The notes under the pieces: model-generated
The model's database searches: none
Seen by the model: the letters and a program-made list of their open reading frames with translations, nothing else
Told to the model about the DNA's origin: nothing
Made by a program: the position numbers and the translations under genes
Source of the DNA: Octopus sinensis
Taxonomy: Eukaryota
DNA length: 11,388 nt
Assembly: GCF_006345805.1 (NCBI RefSeq)
Contig: NW_021826987.1
Coordinates: 1-11,388, forward strand
Direction: 5' to 3'
Shown here: positions 8,827-9,235 of the stretch, one piece after another
Layout: every line of letters begins with the position of its first letter
Numbering within the stretch: position 1 is the first letter of the stretch

Positions 8827-8844
8827 TACTTTAGTGAATAATTA
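8827..8844. repeat. Target-site duplication, left copy (tactttagtgaataatta)
   Basis: Identical 18-mer at 9218-9235. Confidence 0.92.
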
Positions 8845-8987
8845 TTTTCTTCTCTTGGCACAAGGTTCAAAATTTGGTGTGGGAAGGGGACCAGTCGATT
8901 AGATCAGCCCTAGTACCCCGAAAGGATGAAAGGCAAAGTCGACCTCAGCGGAATTTGAACTCAGAACGTAGCGGTAGAAGAAATACC
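8845..8987 (-). mobile_element. SINE family 2, tail type A (3' unit of the composite), with internal deletion
   Basis: ttggcacaagg tail shared with 10122-10132; ccccgaaaggatgaaaggcaaagtcgacctcagcggaatttgaactc core; lacks the actggtacttattttat segment present in the other copies. Confidence 0.9.
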
Positions 8988-9217
8988 TATTTCTTTACTA
9001 CCCAAAAGGGGATAAACACAGAGAGGACAAACAAGGACAGACAAACGGATAAGTCGATATATCGACCCCAGTGCTTAACTGGTACTTAATTTATCGACCC
9101 CGAAAGGATGAAAGGCAAAGTCGACCTCGGCGGAATTTGAACTCGGAACGTAACGGCAGACGAAATACCGCTAAGCATTTCGCCCGGCGTGCTAACGGTT
9201 CTGCCAGCTCGCTATCT
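8988..9217 (-). mobile_element. SINE family 2, tail type B plus intact tRNA-like head (5' unit of the composite)
   Basis: Minus strand GCGAGCTGGCAGAACCGTTAG (A-box-like) ... GAGTTCAAATTCC (B box), GCCTTTCATCCTTTCGGGGTCGATAAATTAAGTACC central domain (resembles the Meta-type conserved SINE domain, from memory), tail ending AGTAAAGAAATA. Confidence 0.93.
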
Positions 9218-9235
9218 TACTTTAGTGAATAATTA
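9218..9235. repeat. Target-site duplication, right copy
   Basis: Identical to 8827-8844. Confidence 0.92.

What the first reader, a model, noticed from the sequence alone, without database searches (positions are those of the whole stretch)
8827..9235. SINE-in-SINE composite under one perfect 18-bp TSD, junction at GGTATTTC in the tRNA-like head
Seen: the TSD brackets head + body + tail B + headless body + tail A. Tail B joins the second unit at gaaatacc (8980-8987), and the same 8-mer recurs at 9162-9169, so removing 8988-9169 regenerates a normal type A monomer like 10114-10318. Inference: a type B unit inserted in register into its parent SINE, consistent with a sequence-specific Tx1-type endonuclease targeting the SINE itself; alternatively a dimer mobilised as one unit.
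Basis: partly seen in the sequence, partly recalled or inferred. Interest (0 to 1): 0.72.

Follow-up and report, generated by a model that had tools for sequence, protein, structure and literature searches.

The report
LINE and SINE share one target
A short jumping repeat here is joined into another copy of its own family at one fixed base, the same base where a protein-coding jumping gene with a matching tail sits in every copy examined, so that gene's enzymes likely steer both elements to this spot and likely built this composite inside an older copy.

Summary
The anatomy is real: exact 18-bp target-site duplication (TSD), one head, a tail-B unit, then a headless tail-A unit. It is not rare: the junction occurs 38,807 times, after 29% of 132,833 exact tail-B ends. 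I found a young L1/Tx1-type LINE whose 3' end matches tail B; 40 of 40 copies sit at that same SINE base. Nested SINE insertions with their own inner TSD hit hosts of several subfamilies. B units are younger than the last A unit, and last units show no shared master. Targeting is therefore supported over a fixed dimer family. Corrections: removing 8988-9169 gives a B/A3 chimera with a 24-nt deletion, not a monomer like 10114-10318. SINE targeting is loose (GGTA core) and seems to need RNA pairing: 0 of 76 junctions carry the C variant that the LINE accepts. No monomer allele was seen for this locus, so the two-step history here is inferred. The scan found this system before on other DNA of this genome; I found no paper on it.

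The parts
9218..9235 (-). Outer TSD, copy 5' of the element
   Evidence: Exact 18-bp match to 8827-8844
9170..9217 (-). SINE head, first 48 nt, with A-box-like motif at about 9206-9196 and the 5' arm of a hairpin whose loop ends at the insertion base
   Evidence: 4 differences from B consensus; hairpin -16.5 kcal/mol on the consensus; head cannot be typed as B or A3
8988..9169 (-). Unit 1: body with B box (about 9142-9132) plus tail B ending in a small stem-loop and AAAGAAATA
   Evidence: 5 substitutions and two 1-nt gaps against B consensus; tail B matches the LINE 3' end at 33 of 42 columns
9162..9169 (-). First GGTATTTC (SINE position 50); left copy of the inferred inner duplication
   Evidence: same base is the LINE landing site
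8980..8987 (-). Junction GGTATTTC after tail B; right copy of the inferred inner duplication
   Evidence: 38,807 exact junctions genome-wide, control 0
8845..8987 (-). Unit 2: headless body with B-type start, 24-nt deletion at 8915/8914, then A3-type end and tail
   Evidence: 17 differences in 144 against A3 consensus; 3 of 72 before and 11 of 71 after the deletion once B-type letters are allowed
8827..8844 (-). Outer TSD, copy 3' of the element
   Evidence: present with the start of tail A in a contig of the more distant organism E (record 2)
10114..10318 (-). Comparator: old A1-type monomer, not the parent subtype of the composite
4627..4820 (-). Comparator: 5'-truncated B copy without junction

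Best explanation
The composite was likely built in place: tail-B SINE RNA, likely copied by an L1/Tx1-type LINE that shares its 3' end, would have been inserted at position 50 of an older A3-tailed SINE to which the outer 18-bp TSD likely belongs. Shown: the LINE exists, has a tail-B-like end and occupies this base in every copy read. Inferred steps: (1) the LINE endonuclease nicks the bottom strand at GC^(G/C)GTATTTC; (2) reverse transcription starts at a fixed point after the tail stem-loop, and for the SINE probably needs its read-through 3' end (GGUA...) to pair with the nicked primer; (3) the new cDNA anneals to the homologous host head, so no second head appears and the unit is added in register; (4) the junction is itself a new target, so arrays grow. 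At this locus the B-type start of unit 2 suggests that a B dimer or read-through RNA went in and the switch to host sequence lies downstream, near the 24-nt deletion, or that a longer array collapsed.
For: LINE with ORF1 zinc knuckle and ORF2 endonuclease/RT/zf-RVT, uninterrupted in L401. 40 of 40 copies flanked on both sides by the SINE at position 50; 29 of 29 LINE tails among 30 loci from an independent pattern, about half overlapping the 40, the 30th a SINE. One LINE copy sits at a tail-B junction (L393). Doubled-head nested SINEs: 122 matches; at least 9 of 22 distinct places among 30 loci read show an inner TSD, in A1, A2-like, A3, B and non-family hosts. Host-type start kept in unit 1 in 8 of 36 scorable B..A composites against 0 of 36 B monomers, p=0.005; host-private letters shared by first and last unit, 6 against 0.96 expected, p=0.0002. 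B units 5.1% against last A unit 8.4% diverged, n=45, p=0.0003; B..B pairs equal, n=21. 43 last A3 units share at most 2 private letters in 903 pairs. The left duplicate of LINE copies differs from the right in 29 of 38, so imperfect inner copies are expected. Pairing: 0 of 76 junctions have C at position 50 though 23 of 60 B-type heads do, C- and G-type are equally old, and the LINE uses both (26 C, 14 G).
Against: No monomer-only or empty allele was seen. A perfect 18-bp TSD is likelier at 2.7% divergence (0.37) than at 7% (0.07). Unit 2 starts B-type, unlike A3 monomers. Only 4 of 44 composites share a private letter between first and last unit; most have a B-type head, which whole-unit mobilisation also predicts. 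The LINE tail variant (GGGCAAT...ATT) resembles the SINE variant that goes mostly to the other site (AGAAAC), and it has about 146 exact copies, so it may be a sister of the family that drove the SINE burst. The age gap uses one 50-nt stretch and samples mostly from one contig. No enzyme activity was tested.
Confidence: 0.7

Rival explanations
1. The whole B-A3 composite was transcribed from a pre-existing composite and inserted here as one unit through its A3 tail; the outer TSD marks that event.
For: Perfect outer TSD fits a young event. Multimers do move as units: a 3-unit B insert inside one inner TSD (L240); B..B units have equal, correlated divergence. Composites with a C-type head end in G-type A3 units. 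Two other composites carry the same 24-nt deletion in the last unit.
Against: Last A units are older than B units and show no shared master. The two other deletion carriers differ in unit 1 and have A-type starts, so they are not sisters. A sample of 43 could miss sisters if sources are many.
Confidence: 0.17
2. The extra unit came by DNA-level recombination (unequal crossover, gene conversion or integration of a 184-bp unit circle) between a B array and an A3 monomer, without retrotransposition at this locus.
For: Unit 2 is a B/A3 chimera; reciprocal A-start/B-start pairs exist (L153, L168, L050); neighbouring units in some arrays share private letters, showing local duplication (L145, L052, L171).
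Against: It does not create the junction; inner TSDs, the LINE at the same base and GGTA-start TSDs in unique DNA show a retrotransposition route.
Confidence: 0.1
3. On steering only (conditional on the best explanation): site choice is set by endonucleases alone, with different LINE families cutting position 50 and position 17 and each carrying a different SINE tail variant; no RNA pairing is needed.
For: The LINE is strict and keeps the host base at position 50 on both sides. Kojima 2015 argues for different Tx1-Mar families behind different SINEU sites (PMC4494074, passages). A related LINE end in the window sits in an ATCT microsatellite.
Against: No C at SINE junctions though C hosts are common and equally old. 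No target consensus upstream of the nick beyond lack of G at -1 (28 sites). The LINE carries the tail variant linked in SINEs to the other site.
Confidence: 0.4

Closest known systems
Tx1-Mar LINEs and SINEU of crocodilians; Tx1L in its DNA transposon (Kojima 2015, PMC4494074; passages seen)
   Same: Tx1-type LINE and its passenger SINE share a target inside another repeat; tandem SINE insertions at the target; SINE less strict than some LINEs
   Different: There the target is a Mariner DNA transposon and tandem copies are separated by a TSD. Here the target is the passenger SINE itself and insertions resolve in register, leaving one head.
TSD1-(SINE)n-TSD1 arrays of the blood clam S. broughtonii (Martelossi 2024, PMC11481361; passages and Discussion read)
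   Same: One complete head, head-truncated repeats, a last unit with a complete tail, all within one TSD
   Different: Tens of arrays, attributed to unequal recombination; partners CR1, CR1-Zenon, L2, Nimb; no targeted LINE reported in what I read. Here tens of thousands of junctions and an L1/Tx1-type partner.
Alu self-insertion hotspot at Alu position 133 (Levy 2009, PMC2836564; passages seen)
   Same: SINE inserts into its own family at one position in sense orientation
   Different: Poly(A)-linker based, leaves a full nested Alu, and L1 itself is not confined to Alu
SINE-derived satellites of squamates (Vassetzky 2023, PMC10702118; passages seen)
   Same: Tandem repeats of a SINE portion
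   Different: Long satellites explained by DNA-level duplication; no targeted seeding in the passages seen
Octopus SINEs of Ohshima and Okada 1994 (seen only as a reference line in PMC3531059; names OK/OR1/OR2 recalled)
   Same: tRNA-derived SINEs from the likely host group
   Different: Not read; whether this family is one of them is untested

Membership tests
tRNA-derived SINE | Short, interspersed, many copies, TSDs | tested here: met
   132,833 exact tail-B ends; 51 TSDs of 10-25 nt, mode 16
tRNA-derived SINE | Head derived from a tRNA with A and B boxes | tested here: inconclusive
   B box GTTCAAATTCC and an A-box-like motif are in the sequence (consensus recalled); ARAGORN and Rfam gave no tRNA match
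tRNA-derived SINE | 3' end shared with a partner LINE | tested here: met
   Tail B matches the LINE end at 33 of 42 columns with the same stem-loop fold; tail A3 aligns poorly, score 20 against 62
L1 group LINE (partner) | Two ORFs; ORF2 with APE endonuclease, RT and C-terminal zinc domain; closest to L1 | tested here: met
   Pfam PF03372, PF00078, PF13966; ORF1 PF00098; human L1 ORF2p E=2e-64 against R2 1e-20
Tx1 clade (partner) | RT phylogeny groups with Tx1 | not tested
   No reference set. A zebrafish protein named TX1 149 kDa scores 298 bits against 221 for human L1: a lead only
Tx1 clade (partner) | Target-specific insertion | tested here: met
   40 of 40 and 29 of 29 at SINE position 50
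Tx1 clade (partner) | Specificity encoded by the endonuclease | not testable with these tools
   Needs a nicking assay
Fixed dimeric SINE family (Alu-like) | Uniform 3' unit of the same age as the 5' unit | tested here: not met
   Last units are A1, A2, A3 or B, older than B units when A, and unrelated to each other
MetaSINE / V / CORE superfamilies | Conserved central domain | tested here: inconclusive
   PMC4824008 part 2 of 6 read; domain sequence is in a figure; supplement search found nothing and file 1 was not searched

The most novel reading that the evidence does not exclude
A closed loop with two targeting codes: the LINE homes by protein to its own parasite SINE and, by landing between the A and B boxes, splits that copy's promoter by 5.3 kb; the SINE uses the same nick but picks among sites with a short RNA guide inherited from its previous landing site, resolves in register, restores the promoter spacing and makes a new target. 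Target preference would be heritable through read-through RNA.
Probability: 0.35. Interest if true: 0.8.

Novelty: new variant of a known kind. Interest (0 to 1): 0.6.

Why it matters
It gives a concrete, testable route from dispersed SINE to tandem array, and a LINE whose preferred target is the SINE it likely mobilises. Uninterrupted LINE ORFs exist (L401), so endonuclease specificity and the RNA-pairing rule can be assayed. If a few read-through bases redirect insertion, that bears on how non-LTR elements choose sites and on RNA-templated insertion tools. It also means repeat annotation of this genome miscounts and misdates these elements. The single locus is one ordinary instance among tens of thousands.

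Tried and rejected
Search for a monomer or empty allele: 7 different runs laid in two calls; repeat contigs flooded the joint tables and no piece spanned the element, so no verdict. Sister copies of the window composite: the deletion pattern gave 3 matches, the window and two composites that differ in both units; an exact 18-mer misses mutated sisters. Partner by RT search: 50 loci (30 best plus 20 chromosomal; RTE-, CR1- and Jockey-like by recalled motifs) showed no tail-B end on the LINE itself; the partner came from a scan for tail-B-like ends without SINE body. Control for the nested pattern at another body position gave 39 matches against 122, but the 12 read were mostly 5' restarts, so the ratio is not a clean hotspot measure. 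My early idea of homology priming at arbitrary body positions without a specific endonuclease was dropped. tRNA identity of the head: no hit. Superfamily assignment: failed. Window 361-1060 and 9600-10030 as LINE remnants: no tblastn hit with the RTs in hand. Literature searches gave no paper on this system in cephalopods; PMC13282606 lists L1-Tx1 families in an octopus without targets (passages). Subscription papers, Repbase reports and unseen supplements could hold it.

Full report
Observation. The window is repeat-rich animal DNA, likely octopod: the best named hits of its LINE are Argonauta and a cuttlefish. At 8827-9235 an exact 18-bp duplication brackets a 373-nt minus-strand element: a 48-nt head, a 182-nt unit ending in tail B, and a 143-nt headless unit ending in tail A. 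The 8-mer is at both stated places. The claim that removing 8988-9169 restores a normal monomer like 10114-10318 fails. Monomer consensuses from fetched loci define tails A1, A2, A3 and B. The 10114 copy is A1. The last unit of the composite is A3-tailed, lacks 24 nt, and starts with B-type letters.

Genome-wide counts. Tail B occurs 132,833 times exactly. It is followed by GGTATTTC 38,807 times, by AGAAAC (head position 17) 5,316 times, and by GGTA plus a non-T 6,429 times (my rough chance estimate is 300). Junctions often recur at about 184-nt spacing. Among 340 parsed elements the forms were monomers and B(n) chains ending in B, A1, A2 or A3; my parser closed an element at each A tail, so it cannot show internal A units.

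Targeting, SINE side. A pattern for target plus a second full head gave 122 matches. Of 30 loci read (22 distinct places), at least 9 have an inner TSD that starts at position 50 and often carries host-private letters; hosts are A1, A2-like, A3, B and non-family sequence. One insert is a 3-unit B chain. The rest are head repeats, restarts or unresolved. Such doubled-head events are under 1% of junctions by exact counts, so most insertions must lose the second head. In single-head composites the first unit starts host-type in 8 of 36 scorable cases against 0 of 36 B monomers, p=0.005; ambiguous rows (8 and 18) were left out. L095 and L087 repeat several host-private letters in first and last unit. 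Over a stretch nearly identical in all subtypes, B units differ 5.1% from consensus and last A units 8.4% (n=45, p=0.0003); first and last units of B..B chains do not differ (n=21). Last A3 units in composites (8.1%) are less diverged than A3 monomers (11.3%), so hosts may be chosen by likeness or partly overwritten. 43 last A3 units share at most 2 private letters per pair. A fixed dimer family is therefore not supported.

Partner. After an earlier finding pointed to an enzyme-bearing partner, a scan for tail-B-like ends without SINE body found a 5.35-kb LINE in L336. It has ORF1 with a zinc knuckle and ORF2 with endonuclease, RT and zf-RVT; L401 has both ORFs uninterrupted. It is L1-group; Tx1 placement rests on architecture, targeting and one named hit, not on a tree. 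Its last 42 columns match tail B at 33. All 40 copies with an identical 3' end (40 scored of 357 candidates) lie in a SINE at position 50, 38 with the full 5' end. An independent tail pattern gave 146 matches; 29 of the 30 read are LINE ends, all at position 50. The left 16-nt duplicate differs from the right in 29 of 38, mostly by a recurring T at position 14, which suggests the left copy is often written from RNA. This supports in-register annealing as the 5' joining step.

Steering. The LINE lands on both head variants (26 C, 14 G at position 50, counted by eye) and both flanks agree at that base. SINE junctions show G in 70, C in 0 of 76, although 23 of 60 B-type heads have C (some of the 76 come from places first chosen for G) and the variants are equally old. 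The tail variant is tied to the landing class: GGGCAAT makes up 18 of the first 100 tail-B ends, 1 of 100 position-50 junctions, 1 of 100 GGTA ends and 69 of 100 AGAAAC ends (counted by eye). Pairing of read-through RNA with the primer explains both; several LINE families with different endonucleases is the rival. The head variant changes positions 45 and 50 together (T-G 28, G-C 21), which keeps a hairpin whose loop ends at the nick.

This locus. Unit 1 body and tail differ from B consensus at 5 of about 182; unit 2 differs at 3 of 72 before the deletion (against B) and 11 of 71 after it (against A3), p=0.03, post hoc. A contig of organism E, about 6% diverged, carries the left flank, TSD and first 20 nt of tail A, and tail-B junction depth relative to body is about 10-fold (85% likeness) to 130-fold (96%) lower in E than in organisms A to D; depth is no copy number, so this is a hint. 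The simplest reading is an old A3 host that later gained B sequence, with the switch to host downstream of the junction or after collapse of a longer array. The perfect outer TSD argues mildly for a younger whole-unit insertion, and no monomer allele was seen.

Comparison and verdict. It works like Tx1-Mar with SINEU (PMC4494074, passages), but the target is the passenger SINE; it has the anatomy of the blood-clam arrays (PMC11481361, passages and Discussion), with a mechanism those passages do not offer. Eight paper searches found no description in cephalopods; the 1994 octopus SINE paper and repeat databases were not seen. The scan has several earlier reports of the same system; these are leads, and the numbers above are my own. 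New variant of a known kind, interest 0.6.

Noticed in passing
window 5206-5750 (minus strand): 3' fragment of a related L1/Tx1-type LINE (ORF2 end 49% over 39 aa, E=1.5e-6) with a tail-B-like end, flanked on both sides by ATCT microsatellite: likely a microsatellite-targeting sister family.
   Followed up: partly
L214-L222, L236-L238: Head-only tandem repeats of about 65-76 nt at the 5' end of SINE copies, some inside one TSD: repeated template restarts.
   Followed up: no
L248; L087, L081, L080: Long host duplications of about 50-70 nt around in-SINE insertions, far above the usual 16.
   Followed up: partly
window 8915/8914, L253, L255: The same 24-nt deletion occurs three times genome-wide by exact pattern, each time in the last unit of a B-A composite.
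   Followed up: partly
tails A1, A2, A3, B consensus: All tails hold a 4-bp stem around a CTTGT loop with different but pairing stems, a likely RT recognition site; the partner of the A tails was not found.
   Followed up: partly
window 2476-2820, 3300-3430, 5950-6015, 6190-6880, 9356-9608: Copies of at least two other interspersed SINE-like families; 9356-9608 has a clear tRNA-like head.
   Followed up: no
L286-L315 (unplaced contigs): The best RT hits cluster on unplaced contigs and belong to young LINE families not seen among the 20 chromosomal hits fetched; possibly DNA of another organism.
   Followed up: no
L336:4380-10000: One host holds the LINE plus several B units and ends in an A3 tail under one short outer duplication: LINE and SINE stacked at the same site.
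   Followed up: partly
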